Assembly: GCA_044892525.1 (NCBI GenBank)
Contig: CM097885.1
Coordinates: 1,924,001-1,988,000, forward strand
Length of the DNA: 64,000 bases
Origin: Schmidtea polychroa
Lineage: Eukaryota
Direction of reading: 5' to 3'
In this document: piece after piece, positions 5,590 through 56,245 of the stretch
How positions within the stretch are numbered: position 1 is the stretch's first letter
Layout: every line of letters begins with the position of its first letter
The notes under the pieces: model-generated
What the model was told of the DNA's origin: nothing
What the model saw: the letters and a program-made list of their open reading frames with translations, nothing else
The model's database searches: none
Program-made: the position numbers and the translations under genes

Positions 5590-5992
5590 TCTAGATCATT
5601 AGAAGTTAGTAATGATGATAAAAATTTCATGATCTATCATACAATGACAGAGCTGTTAATGGGAAAGATTTTAAACGTTGTCTCAAAGAAATCAAAGAGG
5701 TCTGTCAAGCTTCTGGAATTCATACTTCATTTTTATGGTTGACAATGCTCGAATTCATTACTATAGGGGCTTGCATGAGGATGAGGAGATTTCCAATTAT
5801 CAAATTATATATTTCCCACCATACTCCCTTTCTCAATCCTATTTAAAATGTGTTTCTGTTTGGAAGAATGCTGTAGTAAGAAGCGCCACCACAAATGAAT
5901 CACAATTACGAGCTTTCATTACCTCAGATATTTGCGGCGGTTTTTATTGTAAAATGCCCAGATACCTGCAAAAGGCAGAGCTGGACAGATAA
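5590..5992 (+). mobile_element. Tc1/mariner-IS630 (DDE_3) transposase fragment, degenerate
   Basis: FIFMVDNARIHY..YQIIYFPPYS..VSVWKNAV matches the DNAxxH / LPPYSPxLNPIE pattern with a frameshift. Confidence 0.75.
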
Positions 5993-6065
5993 TTCTTGAA
6001 TAATTTATGAGTTGCTTTATTATCTTTGAATTATTAAATTGAGTGCAACATTTATTAAATAGATC

Positions 6066-6166
<101 letters not shown>

Positions 6167-6231
6167 AATCAAAAAAACGTGGCAATGATTTAATAATACA
6201 GAAACGCCAACTCAAAAAAATTCAACATAAA

Positions 6232-6272
6232 CGCGATATATTTCAATTGTACAACAATCTTCGTCAGGCCGC
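6232..6272 (-). ncRNA. Minimal type I hammerhead ribozyme-like motif (stem I damaged)
   Basis: Minus strand reads GCGGC-CUGACGA-A-GAUUGU-UGU-ACAAUU-GAAA-UAUA-UC-GCG: core CUGANGA, 6-bp stem II, GAAA, palindromic stem III, AUC triplet. Only 2 bp of stem I pair. Confidence 0.6.
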
Positions 6273-6782
6273 AATCTGGATAATCAATAATAAGACATAA
6301 AATATGCAATATCTAAACAAATTAACTAATAATAATCATCTCCAAACTGTATCAAAAATTTAAAAAAAAATATTTCAAAAAACCAAACCATATTTTACAT
6401 AGCCCCACATACATATTATTTTAAAATTAAATTTTAATTTAATAACATTTAACATTCAACATAAAATTAACAAATTTAAAAAATTACATAGTTTACAAAA
6501 CACAAACATAATTATACCACAAACACGACTCCCAACCTTCATCCTTCAATTACTTAAACACATTCAATTATAATTTAATTATAATTTTGATTAGTTTTGT
6601 AGATTGATTTTGTGTTTGGTAGAAATTTTGTAGAAATTATTGATTTGGTGGTTTTGTTTTACTGGTGAATTTTTGTTCTGGATTGATGGAATTTTGAATT
6701 GTCGGAAAGTTCTGGAATTGTTCTGGAATTCTTTGGAATTATAATAATCTGTTATTCAAAACCGGACGTCGGCAATAATTAA

Positions 6783-7497
6783 ATGAATCCAGAGTATGAC
6801 TGTTTATTCAAGTTTCTATTAATTGGAGATTCTGGTGTGGGAAAATCTTGTTTATTACTCAGACCTGCAGATGATTCTTATGCTGAAAGTTGCATAAGCA
6901 CAATTGGAGTTGACTTTAACATCAGAACTATTGAATTAGATGGTGGAGCTATGAAATTGCAAATATGGGACACAGCAGGTCAAGAAAGATTTAGAACTAT
7001 AACCTCGTCTTATTACAGAGGAGCTCATGGAATTATTGTTGTGTTTGATGTTACCGATCAAGATTCGTTTAAAAATGTTAAAAATTGGCTTAATGAAATC
7101 GATAGATATACACAAAGAAAAGTTCCAGATAAAATGATTGAGAAGAGTTCAGCCACAAGATTGTTTAATATTACTGAAAGTACTGGAGGTGTTATGACTG
7201 GTATGATCCCTGATTGTCGATCTCAAGTATGTTGTGTACAAGTGGAAGCAGCTCGATTTGAATCTAAAATTGGATATGCGATGCCTTGTGACATAATATG
7301 TCGTTCTATTGCGGATATTAATAAGCTCTATACCCAATCGGCTGAGATGCGACCATTAGGTCTTGATTTCATTCAATTTCGGTCAATGGTGGCATTATCT
7401 TATGATATTGAAATGGACAAACTGTTATTATTCAAAACTGATCCCCGTGGCACTGTGGATGCCAATAAAATTATTAATCTCTTTGTTGGATTTATTC

Positions 7498-7502
<5 letters not shown>
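6783..7502 (+). CDS. Chimeric ORF: Rab1 residues 1-109 fused in frame to the central part of proteasome subunit alpha type-6 (retro-chimera; function doubtful)
   Basis: 6783-7109 [47 protein letters not shown] is Rab1. 7110-7451 [45 protein letters not shown] is PSMA6/alpha1. No introns in the Rab part; the stop codon is the first TAA of the (AAT)n run. Confidence 0.85.

Positions 7503-7563
<61 letters not shown>
7498..7563. repeat. (AAT)n microsatellite closing chimera cassette 1
   Basis: Directly visible. Confidence 0.97.
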
Positions 7564-7564
<1 letters not shown>

Positions 7565-8329
7565 CGATTTGTGTTTATTTAAATTTAATATTGAATTTAG
7601 TGGAAATAAATAAATAATATTTCTAGCGTGAAAATTGATGAAATGAGCATGGACATATCCATTATAGAATTATTGATAACCGCTGCTATGGACAGCACTT
7701 ACCTCTGGCTGTCTGGTGGGGATTCTGGGAGAAATCGAAATGTTCCCCCTTGTCTAAGCTAGACCAATTCTATTAATAATCATTTCCACCGTAAGACCAA
7801 CTGCACAATAATTGCCAGTGAAAATTCTCTTATTATCAATGATTTGATTATAATTTGATAATATTTTCCCTGACCCAGTGGGATATGCTTCATGGGATAA
7901 TAGGGATAAATCCTTTATTAGCGCCTTTCTATGTTATATTGCACATATCCTATCCATATCAGTTCCCTATAAAGGACTGTTTACCACCCCATTACAATAG
8001 TTACCCAACATTTGAAGGTTTGCTTCATTCTCCAGTTCTCATTTATAATTAATACTCAATAATATTTCCCTCCTTTTCAATAATATTATAAACAAATAGG
8101 TAAATATTTGAGTACTGAATGCTACATTGATGGCCTAACCTTCAATGGTCTCACCTTTTGTGTCAAATCTTTCAAACGGTCTTGACTTGGCTTTACCAGG
8201 TCTTCCTACTATGGCACTAATGAAGGCCTATAAAGGTCAAAATGAAAGCTCTAACAATTCTAGAGCTGCCAGAATCTGTCACCGTAATGGTGCTGCTACC
8301 GGGGTCATATGAACTTGCATTTAATGAAA

Positions 8330-8725
8330 GCACAACAAAAGAACTAAAACAAAGGAGTTCTGAATAGATAATATTCAGCTGAATGTTGATGTATATTTCT
8401 GTTTATCTTTATCGCATAGATTTTCATTTGGACAATTATTTATCTTGTCAAAATATTTTAATAAATTTATTTATAGTTTATTTTTAACCAATCAGAGCCA
8501 GACTCAAATTTAACAAATTAAAAAAGCAAATGAAATTTTGAAAATTAAATCGATTTATTCAGATTTAAATTTTATTTTTGAAAAATAGTTTAATTTGTTT
8601 TAATTGGTAAGCCTTTCTGTATTTTAGAGTGACAAAGGCATATTTAGGTGGAAATGTTTCATTTTATGAATAAATACTGCTCATTGCTTAATTATTTACT
8701 GATATTATATTTTATTATTATTATT
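8330..8725 (+). mobile_element. Probable Penelope-like 3' end/pLTR remnant with a degenerate hammerhead at ~8626-8660
   Basis: GTGACAAAGGC..GGAAATGTTTC followed by tttcatt..taaatac..gcttaattat, similar to the tail after the hammerhead at 52030-52110. Ends in an ATT run. Confidence 0.35.
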
Positions 8726-8857
8726 GTTTCGACCAGTTAGAGGGGATTGCCTCTGACTGGCAGTTATTTGGAGTTTGTCTATCGCGTCTGTGTGCGTGGT
8801 CTGGTTAGACCGAATATTGTTGGTGTGCGCACACAGACGCGAGCAATGGAAGCTCGG
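8726..8857. other. Structured GC-rich head of chimera cassette 2: hairpins and a deleted antisense hammerhead
   Basis: Stem 8733-8743/8750-8760 (11 bp, one G-U), flanked by GTTTCGA and CAG. Perfect 15-bp inverted repeat 8782-8796/8828-8842. Small hairpins ggtct-ggtt-agacc and cgagc-aatggaa-gctcg. Confidence 0.7.
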
Positions 8858-9056
8858 TTGGTTTTAAGAGGTAATTGTTAATTGTAAATTTTTATTGATT
8901 GATTTTGGTTTTAAGAGAGGTTTTTAATAGAAATTCTGGATTGTTAATTAGAATTGATTTGTTTAGTTGGATAAAATTCGGTAAATTTTCGAAATTGGAA
9001 TTTTTTTGGAAGAGATTGAATTGTGTTTAAATTGGGATTTTAATTGCCTTGTCAAA

Positions 9057-9611
9057 ATGGCTTCAGGTGTTAAATGTGATCCTTCAGTTGATGTTACCAA
9101 TCAAGATTCGTTCAACAATGTTAAAAATTGGCTTAATGAAATCGATAGATATGAAAAGGGAAAAATTCCCGGTAAATTAATCGTATCGATTGTCACGGAA
9201 CTTTCACAGTTGTTGCCATCATTTTTCATGATTATGCATGGGATCGAGTCTTCTAAATTCACAGATAAGTTCGTCAATAAAAGCAACGATATTGTATTAT
9301 GTATTCGTGAGGAACTAATATTGAATCAGGCTATGTCGGATCTTTCAAATCGATTTGTTTGCAACACGGAAATCAGAAATTATTTAATTGAAGAATTATC
9401 TAACAGAATTTCTCAGTTGTCCGAATTAAAACATCAGGGTGCTTTGGCGTTTATTTCATGGATACCAGAAACAATGAAAATCAATCGTCGTATGATTATG
9501 GCTGCTTTAAAATCTGACGTTGGAATGGACGTGATCCCTGATTGTCGAGCGCAAGTTTATCGTGCACAAATGGAAGCAGCTCGATTAACATCTGAAATTG
9601 GACGTGACTGA
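9057..9611 (+). CDS. Six-segment mosaic ORF (184 aa from ATG 9057): cofilin N-term / Rab1 / PSMA6 / unknown / cofilin / PSMA6
   Basis: MASGVKCDPS (ADF/cofilin start, 9057-9086); [21 protein letters not shown] (Rab1, 9090-9152); KIPGKLI (PSMA6 KVPDKL, ~9153-9182); unknown 9183-9440; LAFISWIPETMKINRRMIMAALKS (cofilin FxxWxP..KMxYAxSK motif, 9441-9521); IPDCRAQVYRAQMEAAR (PSMA6, ~9531-9602). The DNA is visibly similar to 7046-7140 and 7203-7275. Confidence 0.8.
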   Translation: MASGVKCDPSVDVTNQDSFNNVKNWLNEIDRYEKGKIPGKLIVSIVTELSQLLPSFFMIMHGIESSKFTDKFVNKSNDIVLCIREELILNQAMSDLSNRFVCNTEIRNYLIEELSNRISQLSELKHQGALAFISWIPETMKINRRMIMAALKSDVGMDVIPDCRAQVYRAQMEAARLTSEIGRD

Positions 9612-9683
9612 AAATTGGACAAGACATTATCCACTGTCCTCTCAATCAAATAAATTTCTCATGCGTTCTTTTGAGCTGAAACA

Positions 9684-9876
<193 letters not shown>

Positions 9877-9989
9877 TGCTAATGGAGGGGGTAGAAAGTT
9901 ATTGAGAAAAGAGAAAAACAAAAGGTAAATTTCATAATATTTATCTCAGACTGTGCAGCATTACTACCAAGTGCGGGTCCACGAGGGCC

Positions 9990-11099
9990 TCATTCATTAC
10001 TTACAGTGAAAAATGAGACTGAAGAACGATTAACTTGAACTTCTTCATGAACGGTTGATTCAATATTTATCCAATTTTTCTTTTCCCAATAGGATATTTT
10101 TGTGACCCGATAAGCTCGTGTTCGTTCTGAATGCTTAAAGCAGCACATTGTCTCCCTACATCCCTGCCGGAAGCTTTTATGCATTTGGAAATAAAATATA
10201 GGCTTCTGAGTTGAGCTAATGAAGTAAGCTAACGAGATGCCCGGCAGGAAATTGTTCCATTGCGAGAAAATCGTCACGACCAAAACTGTGAACAGGGCCG
10301 ACATGATCAAAATATCGACAAGGGTAATTACCAGTAAAATCTTCAGCACTTGTATTTTTGCTTTCGGAAGGTAATTGAGAGTTCTTCGAATCATGATGCT
10401 GCGGATAGCGGCGGAATTGTGAGAGATTCTCCAAACGAGCAAAACGACTCCGATATAGAAAACAAAGACAATGAAACACGCAACAATATAAAACAGAAAC
10501 ACAAAAATAGCTAAATGAATTTTCAATGTCAGAGAATATGAATAATTTGATAGAGACTGACAGAGGGTTTTAGAAGGGGTTGTCGAATAGGAAATGTAGA
10601 CGACGCAAGGAACGGAGCACAGTACCCCAATCACGATACAGATTGCTACAGAAAATTTGATGTTAGAAAAATTGAACCGCCTATCTATTGGAGAGGCAAG
10701 GGCGTTATATCTATCTATACTGGTGGCCGCCAATGTTGCTTGGTTGCAAGCTATACAAGAAAGAAGGACCATCACCGATCCCCGACAAATAACATCCGAA
10801 GCGAGATCAGACAAACTAAATTCCAAAGCGATCAAACTGCCACCAACAAATAAAAGAAAAACAATTGATTGATAGGACAAAGAAATAATAAAATAATTCG
10901 TGGTTGACTGCATCCTTCTGCTCTGTGTGACCACAATGAGAATGAGGGACTGGATCATAACTCCACTAATGATACATAGGAAATAGATCGGGATCATGAT
11001 CCATGGTTCACTGTTGATTGCTTTCTCAATTGACTGGTTCATCTCTGATGCTAGGTAAACAAATTCAGATGCTAAACTAAAGCAAATATCAATTACCAT
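9990..11099 (-). CDS. GPR19: Rhodopsin-family orphan GPCR, GPR19-like, intronless
   Basis: Seven hydrophobic segments, DRY motif, and GPR19-type motifs SRRMQSTTNYF, RRTLNYLPKAK, SSTQKP (KP in place of NP), FRQGCRETMC, RAYRVT..KKNWI. Confidence 0.85.
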   Translation of the reverse strand: MVIDICFSLASEFVYLASEMNQSIEKAINSEPWIMIPIYFLCIISGVMIQSLILIVVTQSRRMQSTTNYFIISLSYQSIVFLLFVGGSLIALEFSLSDLASDVICRGSVMVLLSCIACNQATLAATSIDRYNALASPIDRRFNFSNIKFSVAICIVIGVLCSVPCVVYISYSTTPSKTLCQSLSNYSYSLTLKIHLAIFVFLFYIVACFIVFVFYIGVVLLVWRISHNSAAIRSIMIRRTLNYLPKAKIQVLKILLVITLVDILIMSALFTVLVVTIFSQWNNFLPGISLAYFISSTQKPIFYFQMHKSFRQGCRETMCCFKHSERTRAYRVTKISYWEKKNWINIESTVHEEVQVNRSSVSFFTVSNE

Positions 11100-17483: not shown

Positions 17484-33737
<16,254 letters not shown>

Positions 33738-42279: not shown

Positions 42280-42990
42280 CAACGGTGGGCAAATGGGGCT
42301 CTTAGAGCCGCATGCGGCTCTTCGTTGAGTAAACTGCGGCTCATTGATAATTGAATTCTTGATAATCGAATTCGATTTTATAAATCTACATTTGCATTTT
42401 TTGTGAACCCATTTATTTGTGATATTATTGAAGATGGATTTCCAATTTCTGAAGTAATACTTGTTAAAAAAGCGGTTGGGGAATTGGAGTTATTAGATAT
42501 GAAAGAGGACCAGGCTTTGCAAATGCACCATAAATCTACTTCTATAGTTGAATTTTGGAAAGTCGTACCAGAGGCAAAATATCCACACTTAAAACAAGCT
42601 GCTTGCCGTCTAATTTCAATTTTTGGTACAACATATTGTTGTGAATCTTTGTACTCCACAATGAAGTTCGTAAAGTCGAAATATCGTTCACAGTTGACCA
42701 ATCAGCATCTTACAGAATTGCTGCGAACAGCTTTAACAAAGTATACACCAAATTTCAAAGATTTGACCAAAATTCTTCGTTAATTCAAGAAATTTTATTA
42801 CTTTTTATTAATGGATTTTTATGTTTGTTACTTAATGTTTGAAATAATTATTTTGTTTTTTTTAATAGCGTTTAAGTCTCTTTGATCAAATTAATGAAAT
42901 AAAAAAAAATATGTACTTTACTATGGTGGCTCTGTAAAAAATAAATTTTCGGAAAATGGCTCTTATTGAACCCATGCGTGCCCACCCTTG
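42280..42990 (+). mobile_element. Internally deleted hAT (Charlie/SPIN/GTF2IRD2-like) element keeping the C-terminal dimerisation domain
   Basis: TIRs CAACGGTGGGCA / TGCCCACCCTTG (11/12); perfect 8-bp TSD GCATATAG at 42272-42279 and 42991-42998; ORF EFWK..YPHLK..FGTTYCCESLYSTMK..KSKYRSQLT. Confidence 0.92.
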
Positions 42991-52569: not shown

Positions 52570-55500
52570 TCAGATAAGTTCCTTGGCTAAATAACTGGAT
52601 AGCTTGCTCGACTTAAGGTAATATTTTATAGAGATTACACGTGTCAGTTGCCTGAAAGATGAAGAAGCATCCTAGAAGATAACGAAATTACTATGGTGAC
52701 CACTGATATTTTTTCTGATGAACTTATTTATTCCTTCACTCAACAATGAGAATAAATAAAAAATTTAACATTATACCATTGTCGTATCTAATTCTTTACT
52801 GATTCTTCTCAACCATGTAGAGGAGCTATTAAAAGCTTGGTCAGACCACGTGGCAATACTGATGCTTATTTCGGAAAAGACTGTCAAATCATCTTCATTG
52901 CCCTCATAAACATTACACAAATGCACTAAGTCTGGGACACATTTCTCGATATCCGTTCTGAGTAAGCATCCGTTTTTTACAGCTTCTTTCATGCATGCCA
53001 TCCGATATGTCAGTGTAGGATCTTGTCTGTGTACAAGTTTCCACACCTTCAAATTGAGGATCTAGAAAGGATAAAATCAAATCCTCTCAAATCGTAATTA
53101 ATTCATATTCATACACATCATAGGTAATACTTAGCTAAATATTCTATGCGAATGATTCTCCCTTTCCTTATTCTGACGTTTCTAGCCTATGCAATTATAT
53201 TTGTGTCATTGGTGATAAAATCTGTGGCCCCGTTCCCTCCATTTACCATGTCAGTTAGTGTCAAATGCTTTATTCTTAATGGCATAAAATCCTTCATTTA
53301 ATAAAATATTGAAGACTAAATAAAATAAGCGTTTGCACTAACGCCTTGTGATCTATACCATCAACTTTTAAGATGACCACGATTACTGTGAAACGTCATC
53401 GGAATGGTCCTGCCTATCGGTCCATTGTGTCCATTAATTTGATTAATTTTAAAACAAAATAAAACAATTGTCTGATTTATTGCTGAATCCGCTGTGACCG
53501 AATTCTGTGCCACACCTATGCACATGTATTCATGCATCCATACACACACATCCACCAGCACATGCACCAGCACAGTGAACGGCAATACGATTGGATAGAA
53601 TCAATTACAATTACGTGTCAATTAGGCCCTCCACTGATCACAGATTTCATAAAATCATACACAAATTCGTTACAACTTAATTTTTATTGTGTCAAATCTG
53701 ATCCAATTTATCAGTTTTGCTTGTGCATTTGACATTTTATCATTGCACATTTGACACAATAAAATGTGAATGTCAATATCTGGCTCACAGGAAACTGGTA
53801 CACATCAGGAAATGTGAGACAAATAAATGACAATAATCCATTGCACATATTTGTGTTGATTTCAGGCTTTTAATGGATAATTATGTGTCAGCTCAGAGGG
53901 GCTAATACTTTTCAATATAACATTAGAATACTTTAACTGGAAAAAACTTGTATCAAATGCTTTTTTTCATTAAACATTGTTTATATTATTTTTCTCTTAA
54001 AGAATTGATGTAAATAAGCTATATATTTGCCTCGGCCGAATTTAATGTTTCGAAATTACACATTTTGTATTACAACCTTACCCCCATAAATGAGCTTATA
54101 CGAATGATTTTGTTTTACTCGAAATCTTATTTCAAAGTTTATGAACCAACCGAAGATGATTAAATTACATATAGTTATTAATTTAGCCAATGTTAGATAT
54201 AAAATGCCAGCAAAAATAACGGGGAGGCAATAAAATTAGCAAATTCACCAGGATTAAAATTTGGTTGTTACAAGCAATTATGATCAAGCTTTCAAGCGAA
54301 ATGAGCAGCCAGCATTTCAGTAAATCTCACTTGCTCAGAAAATATAGCCGTGAAAACTGCCCTGAAGTGGTACATGTCTTGGACGTGGGTTAAAAGGTAG
54401 TCAGCGCACTTTATCCAGAAGAAAATCAAATTGATTCGCTTCTCAGTTGATGGGGTGCTGACAATAGTGGCCATGATGAAGAGAGTTAGAGCAGTCTGTC
54501 TAATATGAAAAAAATAGATAAAAACGAACAATAAAATATATAGAAAGTTTTGTTAATGAAATGAAATTATATAGCAAATATAAAAGAGCGAGTTACAAAA
54601 CACAATAATTATATGAAAAGTGAACTGGCAAAGTTCATAATCAATAAAATCTTTTATCCCTTTTACCATTGGTCTATTTTTATTTTCCAATCAGAATACG
54701 AAATAGAAAGAGAACATGATTTGAAAATCCGACAAGTGTCGCTCACCTGATTGACAAATCACGCTGAAACACATTCGAACCCGCCAGGAAAACCGATCGA
54801 TATCCGATTTGCCAACCGGGCACCGCTGTGGAACCGATTGCAAAACACCGAATCAATTCATCGAGCAAATGCTTGCAAAACACCAAATTGTGATTGGGAC
54901 TCGACAACAGAAAACCCGCAGCCCGATTGATTGCCAATTTGTCGAATTCGTTTTGGATTTGTCCAATGTTCGGCATTTGATGATTTGCCAATGAGGCCAA
55001 CTTGATGAAACTGACCAATCCGATCGATTTCATCGCCACCAACGGCGCAGGAGTCCTGACTAATCGACCGGATTGGTCATCAAGACTGTCCAGCCCGTAG
55101 ATATCGAACCCCCGGTTGCCAGTCGAAGTATTGGGCGTGTTAGCTGTCAATGTTGCCGTGGAGTCGCGCTCTTCACTAGCAGGGAAAAATCGATTGTCCA
55201 TCGGTCGCGTCACAATTGCATTTATCGGATCTGAACGGCTTTCAAATTCAATGTATTCTGATTGGGTGACTCGCTGATTGGCCAATGATTGGCCAGTTAG
55301 CTGATTGGCCAATGATTGGCCGGTTAGCTGATTGGCCAATGCCTGACTTGCTGATTCATCCAATGAGTATTTCTTGCCACTCAAATCCACCGAGGACGCC
55401 AAATTGAGTCCAAAGAGGCTCGGCGAGCGATTTTCCGCGCTGAATCCCCTGCGTAACTGCTCGCGTTTCAGCGCCCCGTCGGTGTCCTTGACCTGGCCGT

Positions 55501-56245
55501 AATCGCTGTAATCCCCGGCTTCTTTGTACAGCTTTTTGTTGCGGATCTTGATGTTGCTCGGCCGCAGCTTCAAAAGCAAATGTTTGCTGCTTAGCAACTT
55601 GAAGCTGGGCTTCCTCGGTTTGTGGGGAGCATCGGAATCGTTCTGGTGGAGATTCGTCAGGCTTTTATTCATTTGCGAGAAATCTGCATCGGAAAATCGC
55701 TGATTGGTCAGATAAGTTTCGCTGCCGCAGCGAGGAATCGTCGGTTTCTTTTCTGTGTGCTTTCGGAACATGTTGGTGCTTTTCCGGAACTTCGACTCTC
55801 TCTGATTGGTCAGACTCGACAATCCGTTGCTTTTTACGTGGTTCGGATCGACAGCCTTGTACAGGACCGCCTCGGACGTGTCGGAGAGGGGAAACTGATT
55901 TTCCTTGTGGAACGATATCAACTTGTAAACGGTTGGAAATTTGAATTTAGAATTTATAAAATACACCAAGCAATTTTTAGTATTATCGATGTCAGTTTGA
56001 ATAATTATATGGATATATTTCCCATTCCATTTAGACGAGACGACGAATTTATTAGTTTTATCTTCGGAGAATCTGACTAGAAATTCTCCATTGTTAATAA
56101 TACGACTTTCAGCTTCAGTTCGTCCAATAACCCCATGAAACCACATTGAATATTTTAATAAGTCCATTTGCTTTTTGATTTCATTATCCAAAAGCAATTT
56201 TGGATCAATTTGATGATGATTATCAAATTCATAAATTTCTCCCAT
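52570..56245 (-). CDS. BCAR3/SH2D3 (NSP-family) adaptor, SH2 + Cdc25/RasGEF-like domain; exons 56245-54747, 54499-54331, 53061-52777 and (less certain) 52671-52570
   Basis: SH2: SMWFHGVIGRTEAE..NGEFLVRFS..FVVSSKW..F.TV..LI.FH..PLSDTSEAVL. Exon 2 R-QTALTLFIMATIV..DMYHFRAVFTAIFSEQ joined to exon 3 ILNLKVW resembles BCAR3 (GDLYSFSALMKALEMPQ-ITRLEKTW). All introns are GT-AG with compatible phases. Confidence 0.82.

What the first reader, a model, noticed from the sequence alone, without database searches (positions are those of the whole stretch)
9057..9611. Six-part interleaved mosaic of cofilin, Rab1, PSMA6 and an unknown gene, all in one open frame
Seen: the order is cofilin N-term (10 aa), Rab1 (21 aa), PSMA6 (~10 aa), unknown (~86 aa), cofilin actin-binding segment (~27 aa), PSMA6 (~24 aa). 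Pieces from each donor keep their native order but are interleaved, and every recognisable piece is sense and in its native frame. It shares the Rab1>PSMA6 breakpoint with the 6783 ORF, so both descend from one earlier chimera that was then reshuffled. Inference: repeated template switching between abundant mRNAs or earlier chimeras. Frame retention at all junctions suggests selection for an open frame, for example to escape nonsense-mediated decay or because the product is used.
Basis: partly seen in the sequence, partly recalled or inferred. Interest (0 to 1): 0.85.

Follow-up and report, generated by a model that had tools for sequence, protein, structure and literature searches.

The report
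Host-gene mosaic inside a retrotransposon LTR
The patchwork reading frame is real, but it sits inside the long terminal repeat of an abundant retrotransposon whose repeats carry spliced pieces of host genes kept in frame with the element's own ubiquitin-Gag protein.

Summary
The six-part mosaic is confirmed. Both cofilin pieces match a host cofilin gene at 92-100% DNA identity with its intron spliced out. The Rab1 piece matches contigs that run on into Rab1 sequence. The PSMA6 pieces align with the neighbouring 6783 ORF.

It is not a free-standing retrogene. Window 8725-9683 is a solo LTR: TG...CA ends and a 5-bp duplication (ATTAT). Its family has at least 576 copies of the LTR's first 38 bases in this 781-Mb genome.

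Full copies have these features:
- LTR pairs 99.7-99.9% identical.
- An 18-nt primer-binding site complementary to the genome's own initiator tRNA-Met.
- A polypurine tract.
- One frame of about 1,377 codons. It starts in the 5' LTR, crosses the primer-binding site, and continues through two ubiquitins, a Gag (DUF1759) and a weak protease-like region.
- No RT or integrase in the copy read.

Different LTRs carry different in-frame combinations of cofilin, Rab1, PSMA6, CCT, LIM, DUSP and AAA-ATPase fragments. The frame stays open to the LTR end in 26 of 30 units.

The frame retention is best explained by selection for read-through into Gag. Capture by reverse-transcriptase template switching is inferred from the spliced inserts and 2-7 nt microhomologies. 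This is a new variant of known retroelement gene capture (maize Bs1, gag-onc retroviruses).

The parts
8720..8724 (.). Target-site duplication, left copy (ATTAT), within a short ATT run
   Evidence: the 5 bases before TG equal the 5 bases after CA. This copy lies in a microsatellite, so on its own the match is weak evidence.
8725..9683 (+). Solo LTR (959 bp) of a non-autonomous Bel/Pao-like LTR retrotransposon family. It starts TG and ends CA. There is no primer-binding site after it and no polypurine tract before it.
   Evidence: Searches give the sharp shared ends. One search finds 576 genome matches to the 38-base start (control 0). Searches show the same unit as paired LTRs of full copies.
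8733..8760 (+). First terminal hairpin of the LTR (11-bp stem)
   Evidence: fold of 8725-8850 gives MFE -57 kcal/mol, z -5.8, with 0 of 200 shuffles folding as well. The hairpin is conserved across copies.
8782..8842 (+). Second, longer hairpin of the LTR start region
   Evidence: This region is 88-98% identical among 8 LTRs compared.
8845..9035 (+). Hypervariable G+T-rich leader between the conserved LTR start and the start codon
   Evidence: 28-85% identity in 60-nt bins here, against 93-100% in the bins of shared coding modules, in the same 8 LTRs.
9057..9091 (+). Start codon plus the first cofilin codons, from host cofilin mRNA
   Evidence: 9059-9091 is 100% identical to L061 1464-1496. 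A relative (L063) also carries 21 nt of the host's upstream exon, up to and including the ATG.
9089..9157 (+). Rab1 fragment. It overlaps the cofilin piece by 3 shared letters (9089-9091).
9158..9176 (+). Short PSMA6-derived piece, identified only through the 6783 ORF
9173..9434 (+). Piece of unknown origin. Contigs of run X2 continue it on both sides with other sequence that stays open in the same frame.
   Evidence: Searches found no homologue. One search shows loose ends at 9173 and 9434, including a 1,643-nt contig.
9433..9517 (+). Second cofilin fragment, spliced across the host intron site at 9461/9462
9518..9531 (+). 14 nt that could not be assigned to a donor
   Evidence: Read directly. 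No significant alignment to either neighbouring donor.
9532..9602 (+). Second PSMA6 fragment
   Evidence: 84.5% to 7204-7274, which lies inside the Pfam Proteasome match of the 6783 ORF. In one search, X4 contigs diverge at 9586 into sequence that I read as PSMA6-like (KYKNGYEIP).
9609..9611 (+). Premature stop of this copy; relatives read on to the LTR end
9612..9683 (+). Decayed 3' tail of the LTR, shared family-wide. AATAAA lies at 9649-9654, 29 nt before the LTR end. This copy has small deletions compared with its relatives.
   Evidence: table 5c.
9684..9688 (.). Target-site duplication, right copy (ATTAT), followed by a long (ATT)n run
6574..7498 (+). Related, older LTR type carrying Rab1 (from its own start codon) joined to a longer PSMA6 piece (ORF 6783-7502). 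This copy lacks the conserved LTR start.
   Evidence: 2,060 first-look candidates, 40 scored at 87-94% identity, with homology beginning at query position 425-572.

Best explanation
Window 8725-9683 is a solo LTR of a very abundant, recently active, non-autonomous Bel/Pao-like LTR retrotransposon. In this family the polyprotein frame does not begin in the internal region. It begins about 210-330 nt into the LTR in most copies read and runs open through the rest of the LTR and the tRNA primer-binding site. It then passes through two ubiquitin copies, Gag, and a weak protease-like region.

The LTR-borne part of the frame is a cassette of spliced host-mRNA fragments, which differ from one LTR lineage to the next.

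Inferred steps:
1. The fragments were captured as RNA. Reverse transcriptase switched templates between the element's RNA and other RNAs, host mRNAs or other family members, at short microhomologies.
2. Only variants that keep an open frame from the LTR start codon into ubiquitin-Gag make Gag and multiply. This explains why every joint is in frame. In AT-rich DNA only sense, native-frame coding pieces stay open, which explains why every recognisable piece is sense and in its native frame.
3. The ubiquitin copies probably let host deubiquitinases cut Gag free. If so, the upstream peptide is free to vary.
4. The cassette lies in the stretch copied first from the primer-binding site (R/U5). Strand transfer there could make module swapping frequent.
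For: Shown, LTR anatomy:
- Sharp common ends, TG...CA.
- Identical 5-mers at the ends in 5 of 8 units whose flanks are both non-repetitive. Two more fit when the LTR end is moved by 1 or 6 nt.
- 576 matches to the 38-base LTR start, control 0, many as same-strand pairs about 4.4 kb apart.
- Two LTR pairs 99.9% (1,026 nt) and 99.7% (1,055 nt) identical, each pair with the same mosaic.
- The 18 nt directly after the LTR are complementary to the 3' end plus CCA of a tRNA-Met (CAT) gene in the same genome.
- A polypurine tract lies directly before the 3' LTR.

Shown, the coding frame:
- One 1,377-codon frame runs from the 5' LTR to just before the polypurine tract.
- Pfam finds ubiquitin twice (E 4e-52), DUF1759 (E 2.5e-9), Cpn60_TCP1 (E 7e-40) and Ras in that frame.
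- Eight further copies have uninterrupted frames of 1,335-1,395 codons around Gag. That is longer than the roughly 1,147 codons between the primer-binding site and the stop. Four of the eight share the same length and score and may be duplicates.
- The frame is open to the LTR end in 26 of 30 units with recognisable ends.
- Host fragments seen in frame are Cofilin, Ras, Proteasome, Cpn60_TCP1, LIM, DSPc and AAA.
- Of 139 representative open segments in other frames (from 378), only 2 had Pfam hits. Both are sense-strand continuations of frameshifted copies; none was antisense.

Shown, origin of the pieces:
- cDNA origin of the cofilin pieces.
- Shared letters at the joints: 3 nt (9089-9091), 2 nt (9433-9434) and up to 7 nt at 9172/9173.
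- Coding modules are 93-100% identical among LTRs whose leaders are only 28-85% identical, which fits module exchange.
Against: - No transcript start or poly(A) site could be mapped, so the U3/R/U5 layout and use of the LTR start codon are inferred. Only contigs were available and no run is on record as RNA.
- Translation could also start at a later ATG. The second ubiquitin begins with M, and there is an M between the primer-binding site and the first ubiquitin.
- The one full copy read end to end has two LTRs with different mosaics. A fresh insertion should not, so later recombination must be invoked.
- One solo LTR (L002) has no 5-bp duplication. Instead about 70 bp of its left flank recur about 75 nt beyond its end.
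- The protease-like region is only weakly supported: Asp_protease_2 E 0.004 and DUF1758 E 0.15, both below cut-off.
- No RT-bearing partner was identified.
- pN/pS of 0.57 is below 1, so some constraint on the peptide is not excluded.
- The sample is about 50 LTRs out of thousands. It was chosen by similarity to this window's ORF, its leader or cofilin.
Confidence: 0.75

Rival explanations
1. A free-standing chimeric retrogene or pseudogene family made by LINE reverse transcriptase switching between abundant mRNAs, then amplified.
For: The inserts are spliced cDNA. Joints have microhomology. The copies are dispersed. LINE-driven bipartite and tripartite chimeras are known; I saw the abstract of PMC2104539 in the listing.
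Against: - No poly(A) tail: microsatellites flank both sides and in either orientation.
- A fixed 5-bp duplication and TG...CA ends.
- The same unit occurs as paired LTRs with a primer-binding site and a polypurine tract around Gag.
- Full-length 5' ends are the rule in the copies read.
Confidence: 0.04
2. The patchwork protein itself is the selected product, for example a decoy or dominant-negative made of cofilin, Rab1 and proteasome fragments, or a domesticated host gene family.
For: The frames are kept open. pN/pS is 0.57, below 1. The coding modules are better conserved than the leader.
Against: - The fragments are partial domains: 27 of 125 Cofilin profile positions and 30 of 162 Ras positions.
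- Architectures differ widely between LTR lineages.
- Variable sites are spread 23/10/16 over codon positions.
- 2 of 15 distinct module copies and 4 of 30 units carry stops.
- The ubiquitins placed before Gag suggest the upstream peptide is cut off.
Confidence: 0.1
3. DNA-level capture by a cut-and-paste or rolling-circle transposon (Pack-type or Helitron-like).
For: The ends are sharp without a poly(A) tail, insertions prefer AT-rich repeats, and hairpins sit near one end.
Against: - The host intron is absent from the insert.
- I saw no terminal inverted repeats in the ends read.
- The primer-binding site, polypurine tract, Gag and paired direct repeats point to reverse transcription.
Confidence: 0.02
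4. The frame is open because the copies are young and not because of selection. The joints happened to be in frame in one ancestor and were inherited.
For: Copies are 94-98% identical. Many architectures share blocks, so not all joints are independent events.
Against: - At least 7 different joints between two identified donors are all in frame: cofilin|Rab1, Rab1|PSMA6, cofilin|PSMA6, LIM|Rab1, Rab1|CCT, cofilin|DUSP and DUSP|AAA. Chance would give about (1/3)^7.
- No antisense piece was found.
- Deletion variants also keep the frame.
Confidence: 0.07

Closest known systems
Bs1 LTR retrotransposon of maize (host-gene transduction forming a hybrid ORF)
   Same: It is an LTR retroelement that picked up segments of three host genes, which form a chimeric ORF that is transcribed and translated. 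I read passages of the review PMC13317346. That review also describes abnormal template switching between RNAs packaged together as a capture route (Veju, BARE-2).
   Different: In this family the captured pieces lie inside the LTR and not in the internal region. They are reshuffled into many architectures (about 15 by my reading of about 50 LTRs). They are read through the primer-binding site into ubiquitin-Gag, and the family has hundreds to thousands of copies.
Acutely transforming retroviruses with gag-onc fusions (recalled, no call)
   Same: Spliced host mRNA sequence is captured by a retroelement through reverse-transcriptase recombination. It is kept in frame with Gag because only in-frame fusions are expressed.
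   Different: Those insertions replace internal viral genes, sit downstream of the gag start and are selected for the host protein's activity. The host pieces in this family are short non-functional fragments upstream of Gag, within the LTR.
Cytopathic pestiviruses with host ubiquitin insertions (recalled, no call)
   Same: Host ubiquitin coding sequence is captured in frame in a viral polyprotein, so that cellular ubiquitin hydrolases cut the polyprotein at a new site.
   Different: That is an RNA virus and an occasional variant. In this family two ubiquitin copies precede Gag in all 3 copies read far enough (L024, L058, L059). Cleavage has not been shown.
Ty1 of yeast, whose GAG start codon lies in the 5' LTR, and MMTV, whose LTR holds the sag ORF (both recalled, no call)
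   Same: Coding sequence inside an LTR. In Ty1, translation of Gag begins within the LTR.
   Different: In Ty1 only a few codons lie in the LTR, and the MMTV sag ORF is not read into gag. In this family about 140-260 LTR codons, made of host fragments, precede Gag.
LINE-mediated chimeric retrogenes made by template switching
   Same: Direct fusion of cDNA copies of different cellular RNAs, with microhomology at the joints. I saw the abstract of PMC2104539 in the listing.
   Different: Those have poly(A) or LINE tails and variable duplications, and are usually single dead copies. The unit in this window is a replicating LTR.

Membership tests
LTR retrotransposon | Two direct long terminal repeats flanking an internal region, near-identical in young copies | tested here: met
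   pairs 99.9% (1,026 nt) and 99.7% (1,055 nt) identical. LTR-internal-LTR layout; many same-strand pairs about 4.4 kb apart.
LTR retrotransposon | LTR termini 5'-TG...CA-3' | tested here: met
   The window LTR is 8725 (TG) to 9683 (CA).
LTR retrotransposon | Short target-site duplication of fixed length | tested here: met
   of 8 solo-like units with non-repetitive flanks, 5 have identical 5-mers in register and 2 more after shifting the LTR end by 1 or 6 nt. One (L002) has none.
LTR retrotransposon | Primer-binding site complementary to a tRNA 3' end, directly after the 5' LTR | tested here: met
   Searches place the site directly after CA. Searches find a tRNA-Met (CAT) gene in the same genome whose 3' end plus CCA is complementary over 18 nt.
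LTR retrotransposon | Polypurine tract directly before the 3' LTR | tested here: met
   L038, L046, L049, L054; L072, L073.
LTR retrotransposon | Gag-like protein | tested here: met
   DUF1759, E 2.5e-9, 37.7 bits against a cut-off of 25.4. Two Cys-His knuckle-like motifs were seen by eye in the translation.
LTR retrotransposon (autonomous) | Reverse transcriptase, RNase H and integrase | tested here: not met
   the single frame ends before the polypurine tract and has no such domain. The largest frame around Gag in 108 matches is 1,423 codons. The family is therefore filed as non-autonomous.
LTR retrotransposon | Aspartic protease | tested here: inconclusive
   Asp_protease_2 E 0.004 (18.2 bits, cut-off 24.3) and DUF1758 E 0.15.
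Bel/Pao superfamily | Placement by RT/integrase phylogeny | not testable with these tools
   There is no RT in the element. The assignment rests on the DUF1759 Gag domain and a weak DUF1758 hit. That these two Pfam families are linked to Bel/Pao is recalled, not tested. PMC3118150 (passages) reports Bel/Pao families in a planarian but says nothing on coding LTRs.
LINE-mediated chimeric retrogene | Poly(A) or LINE-type 3' tail, variable-length duplications, frequent 5' truncation | tested here: not met
Helitron / Pack-type DNA transposon capture | Genomic (intron-containing) captured fragments; terminal inverted repeats or Helitron-type ends | tested here: not met
   intron absent; ends.

The most novel reading that the evidence does not exclude
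The host-mRNA cassette in the LTR is not only tolerated but useful to the element, or has been co-opted by the host, through small RNAs. Thousands of copies, in both orientations, carry near-exact stretches of essential host mRNAs (cofilin, Rab1, proteasome, chaperonin, ubiquitin). They could make piRNA silencing of the element costly, a 'hostage' effect. They could also be a source of the antisense piRNAs that guide PIWI proteins to host coding sequences in flatworm stem cells.

Only a lead was found. Kim et al. 2019 (PMC6824462) report piRNA-guided turnover of neoblast mRNAs (abstract and passages). Their Table S1 lists a cofilin homologue and a polyubiquitin gene among genes with piRNA counts. 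My term searches found no row for Rab1, a proteasome alpha subunit, a chaperonin/TCP or a dual-specificity phosphatase. I did not show that the window's organism is the species of that paper.
Probability: 0.12. Interest if true: 0.9.

Novelty: new variant of a known kind. Interest (0 to 1): 0.72.

Why it matters
It turns an odd ORF into a tractable system. The family is abundant and young, and its LTRs act as an open-frame cassette that keeps capturing and reshuffling spliced host-mRNA pieces.

- It offers a natural record of many reverse-transcriptase template switches, with a clear selective filter: staying in frame with Gag.
- It shows coding sequence that crosses a primer-binding site.
- The ubiquitin-before-Gag layout suggests how an element can free its structural protein from whatever lies upstream.
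- Gene annotation of this genome is probably inflated by the family. At least 108 cofilin-like matches and thousands of Rab1/PSMA6-like candidates are likely LTR pieces and not genes.
- Near-exact host-mRNA stretches in thousands of repeats could confound RNA-seq, RNAi and small-RNA mapping for these housekeeping genes.

In four full-text searches I found no description of such coding LTRs.

Tried and rejected
- SINE or LINE-tail model. I first read the (ATT)n run as a retroposon tail. I rejected this because microsatellites of either orientation lie on both sides of many copies, so they are insertion targets.
- Helitron or DNA-transposon model. Rejected.
- Structured-RNA families. Rfam (E up to 1) and ARAGORN found nothing in 5800-10000.
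- LINE partner. L042/L043 show the LTR start followed by an RT-like fragment. The 9.9-kb region fetched (L067) is a jumble that includes a separate LINE-like element, and it gave no partner.
- Donor of the unknown piece. No credible homologue was found. The own-genome search is swamped by family copies.
- Expression. No RNA holder is listed. The runs laid were contigs only and gave no transcript starts or ends.
- Protease. Pfam support is only weak.
- Earlier notes of this scan. Nothing was returned.
- piRNA link. Cofilin and polyubiquitin are present in one published table; four other donors were not found. Supplement files 1 and 2 of that paper could not be searched.
- Host Rab1 and PSMA6 genes were not located in the genome. 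Their identity rests on contigs and Pfam.
- A wider census was not possible.
- No structure or complex prediction was run.
Full report
**The observation**

Window 9057-9611 is a 184-codon open frame in DNA of about 30% G+C. My estimate is that a frame this long arises there by chance at about 2e-7.

- Pfam finds a Cofilin_ADF piece (aa 129-155, E 6e-4) and a Ras piece (aa 12-41, E 0.0017). Both are short and below the curated cut-offs.
- The neighbouring ORF 6783-7502 has Ras (aa 10-116, E 1e-41) and Proteasome (aa 111-229, E 9e-16) in one frame.
- Two stretches of the 9057 ORF align without gaps to the 6783 ORF: 9088-9176 = 7045-7133 (87.6%) and 9532-9602 = 7204-7274 (84.5%). The first crosses the Rab1/PSMA6 joint.

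**Donors at DNA level**

A Pfam Cofilin search of the window's own assembly (781 Mb, 1,012 contigs) gave 108 matches. The best, L061, looks like the host gene. It has an exon beginning with the codons that follow the start codon, a short GT..AG intron, and a further exon.

- The window matches L061 at 9059-9091 (100%, 33 nt), 9433-9461 (96.6%) and 9460-9525 (92.4%). The intron is absent from the window.
- A relative (L063) also carries 21 nt of the host's upstream exon, ending in the ATG.

Contigs of public runs were laid on the LTR. Their kind is not on record; 'RNA?' is a guess.

- They run on into Rab1-type sequence on both sides of 9089-9157.
- They run on into native cofilin on both sides of 9433-9517.
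- They run on into other sequence, open in frame, on both sides of the unknown piece (9173 and 9434).
- They run on into PSMA6-like sequence after 9586.

These contigs place the joints at 9088/9089, 9157/9158, 9172/9173, 9432/9433 and 9517/9518. The shared letters are 3 nt at the first joint, 2 nt at the fourth, and up to 7 nt at the third if the ancestral codon kept in relatives is used. The second is ambiguous within about 6 nt, and 9518-9531 is unassigned.

The unknown 88 residues have no credible homologue.

**What the unit is**

The ORF is one copy of a dispersed family. A DNA search gave 1,634 first-look candidates, of which the 40 scored gave 43 matches, the long ones at 94-100% identity. 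Different subsets of the ORF are present in different copies.

- Homology extends from a sharply defined start about 330 nt upstream of the ATG to a sharply defined end about 70 nt past the stop.
- The unit starts TG and ends CA.
- Flanks are unrelated between copies. They are either unique sequence or microsatellites of either orientation on both sides.
- Of 26 distinct units with recognisable ends, 21 have neither a primer-binding site after them nor a polypurine tract before them. Of those 21, 8 have non-repetitive flanks. Five of the 8 carry identical 5-mers exactly at the two ends (CCCAT, CACGG, ACATC, CCATC, AATAA). Two more do so once the LTR end is moved by 1 or 6 nt. One (L002) does not.
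- The window copy has ATTAT on both sides, but it lies in an ATT repeat.
- The first 38 bases of the unit occur 576 times in the genome at up to 2 mismatches (control 0). Many occurrences form same-strand pairs about 4.4 kb apart.

**Full copies**

I read one such pair through on contig C2. Its layout is:

1. The unit.
2. Directly after it, an 18-nt stretch complementary to the 3' end plus CCA of a tRNA-Met (CAT) gene found in the same genome.
3. A single 1,377-codon frame.
4. A polypurine tract.
5. The unit again.

The frame starts inside the first unit. It runs on through the rest of it, then through the primer-binding site, two ubiquitin copies (Pfam E 4e-52, two stretches), a DUF1759 Gag domain (E 2.5e-9), two knuckle-like Cys-His motifs (seen by eye), a weakly protease-like region and an acidic tail. 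There is no reverse transcriptase or integrase.

Two further pairs of units are 99.9% and 99.7% identical within each pair, and each pair carries the same mosaic.

A search with the Gag region gave 977 first-look candidates and 108 matches. Nine lie in uninterrupted frames of 1,335-1,395 codons: the copy read above, plus eight more. That is longer than the roughly 1,147 codons between the primer-binding site and the stop, so in those copies too the frame continues into the LTR. Four of the nine share the same length and score and may be duplicates.

The unit is therefore an LTR. The family is a non-autonomous LTR retrotransposon with a Bel/Pao-type Gag domain; that link is recalled, not tested. 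The window copy is a solo LTR.

**The cassette across the family**

- Among 43 distinct units that carry the LTR start, 30 have a recognisable end. In 26 of those 30 the frame is open to the last base of the LTR. Four, including the window copy, have premature stops.
- The frame content differs widely. Examples are cofilin(1-~100)-PSMA6; cofilin-Rab1-PSMA6-unknown-cofilin-PSMA6 (the window type); LIM-Rab1-...; Rab1-CCT-cofilin; cofilin-DUSP; DUSP-AAA ATPase; and Rab1(1-116)-PSMA6 (the 6783 type). By my reading there are about 15 architectures in about 50 LTRs.
- Several use the captured gene's own start codon. This holds for cofilin, together with part of its 5' UTR, and for Rab1 in the 6783 type.
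- At least 7 different joints have both sides identified by Pfam or by the host gene, and all 7 are in frame.
- As a control, 139 representatives of the 378 open segments of 40 or more codons in the other five frames were scanned. Two had hits, both sense-strand continuations in frameshifted copies. None was antisense.
- A module shared by 15 distinct copies has pN/pS 0.57 and variable sites 23/10/16 by codon position. Two copies carry stops. This shows little constraint on the peptide.
- Along the LTR, the start region is 88-98% identical and the G+T-rich leader 28-85%. The bins of shared coding modules are 93-100% identical in the same 8 comparisons. This fits exchange of modules between lineages better than uniform decay.

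**How it most likely works**

Shown: the LTR anatomy, the read-through frame, the cDNA nature of the cofilin pieces, the in-frame rule and the microhomologies.

Inferred:

1. Capture and reshuffling happen during reverse transcription, by template switching between the element's RNA and other RNAs.
2. The cassette is in the part of the LTR that is transcribed at the 5' end (R/U5). That part is copied first from the tRNA primer and must transfer strands, so it may be especially prone to switching. The family-wide AATAAA about 30 nt before the LTR end would then mark the R/U5 border.
3. Selection for translation from the LTR start codon into Gag removes out-of-frame, antisense or stop-containing variants.
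4. The ubiquitins let cellular hydrolases release Gag, which makes the upstream peptide free to vary.

None of points 1-4 could be tested here, because no transcript ends or protein data were available.

**Results against, or unexplained**

- The full copy on C2 has different mosaics in its two LTRs and sits in a local duplication.
- L002 lacks the 5-bp duplication.
- The protease is doubtful.
- No helper element was found.
- A later start codon for Gag cannot be excluded.
- The sample is small and similarity-selected.

**Comparison with known systems**

The closest case in print that I read is maize Bs1. It is an LTR element with three transduced host fragments forming a hybrid, expressed ORF. 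The same review covers abnormal template switching in LTR elements (passages of PMC13317346).

Gag-onc retroviruses, ubiquitin insertions in pestiviruses, the Ty1 GAG start in the LTR and the MMTV LTR ORF are recalled parallels.

Bel/Pao families were reported in a planarian (passages of PMC3118150), with no mention of coding LTRs. Four full-text searches turned up no description of LTR-borne host-mRNA cassettes read into ubiquitin-Gag.

I rate this as a new variant of a known kind. The genome size, base composition and the paper hits merely suggest a flatworm, which is my inference.

Noticed in passing
L069 (G000:C1:79326060-79326580) and the surrounding array: The initiator-type tRNA-Met (CAT) gene that matches the element's primer-binding site sits in a huge tandem array with a 454-bp period. 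The 16-base 3'-end pattern occurs 1,257 times in the genome (435 + 822, control 0), mostly in this array.
   Followed up: partly
window 6300-7502: The 6783 ORF belongs to an older, even larger LTR type (2,060 first-look candidates; copies 87-94% identical). This copy lacks the conserved LTR start. It is preceded by an A+C-rich stretch (6300-6570) that looks like the reverse complement of a G+T-rich leader.
   Followed up: partly
loci L009, L011, L012, L015, L021, L023 and others; window 8710-8724 and 9684-9870: 13 of 21 solo-like LTRs lie inside microsatellites, (AAT)n, (ATT)n or (TA)n, with the repeat on both sides. This suggests an insertion preference for AT-rich simple repeats.
   Followed up: partly
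L002 (G000:C3:59110714-59114265): This solo LTR has no 5-bp duplication. About 70 bp of its left flank recur about 75 nt beyond its right end.
   Followed up: no
G000:C2:154145668-154155397 (L047, L046, L068, L058): The full element has a 5' LTR (Rab1-CCT-cofilin) and a 3' LTR (Rab1-unknown-cofilin) with different mosaics. It is followed by a 2,022-bp local duplication that repeats the end of the internal region, the polypurine tract and the LTR.
   Followed up: partly
L067 (G000:C1:269501500-269511400); L042, L043: An LTR start is followed by an RT-like fragment in broken frames. Nearby is a large LINE-like element with a 1,042-codon frame and an RT-like frame.
   Followed up: partly
window 9990-11099 (-), 17484-18029 (+), 33015-33737 (+): Intronless rhodopsin-type receptor-like ORFs. 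The first has a Pfam 7tm_1 hit, E 4e-19. The other two were judged by eye only.
   Followed up: partly
window 42403-42783 (+) and 54743-56245 (-): A hAT transposase dimerisation-domain fragment (E 4e-10) and a 500-codon ORF with an SH2 domain (E 3e-14).
   Followed up: no
G000, genome-wide: At least 108 intronless cofilin-like matches, many in open frames of 140-250 codons. The five I read include the host gene (L061), two LTR cassettes (L063, L065) and a more distant ADF-like gene (L062). Gene counts for cofilin, Rab1 and PSMA6 in this genome are probably inflated.
   Followed up: partly
L073/L074 (G000:C1:18605080-18610730): An LTR pair carries a longer cassette, cofilin start-DUSP-like followed by about 200 codons of further unidentified sequence. 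This shows donors beyond those named here.
   Followed up: no
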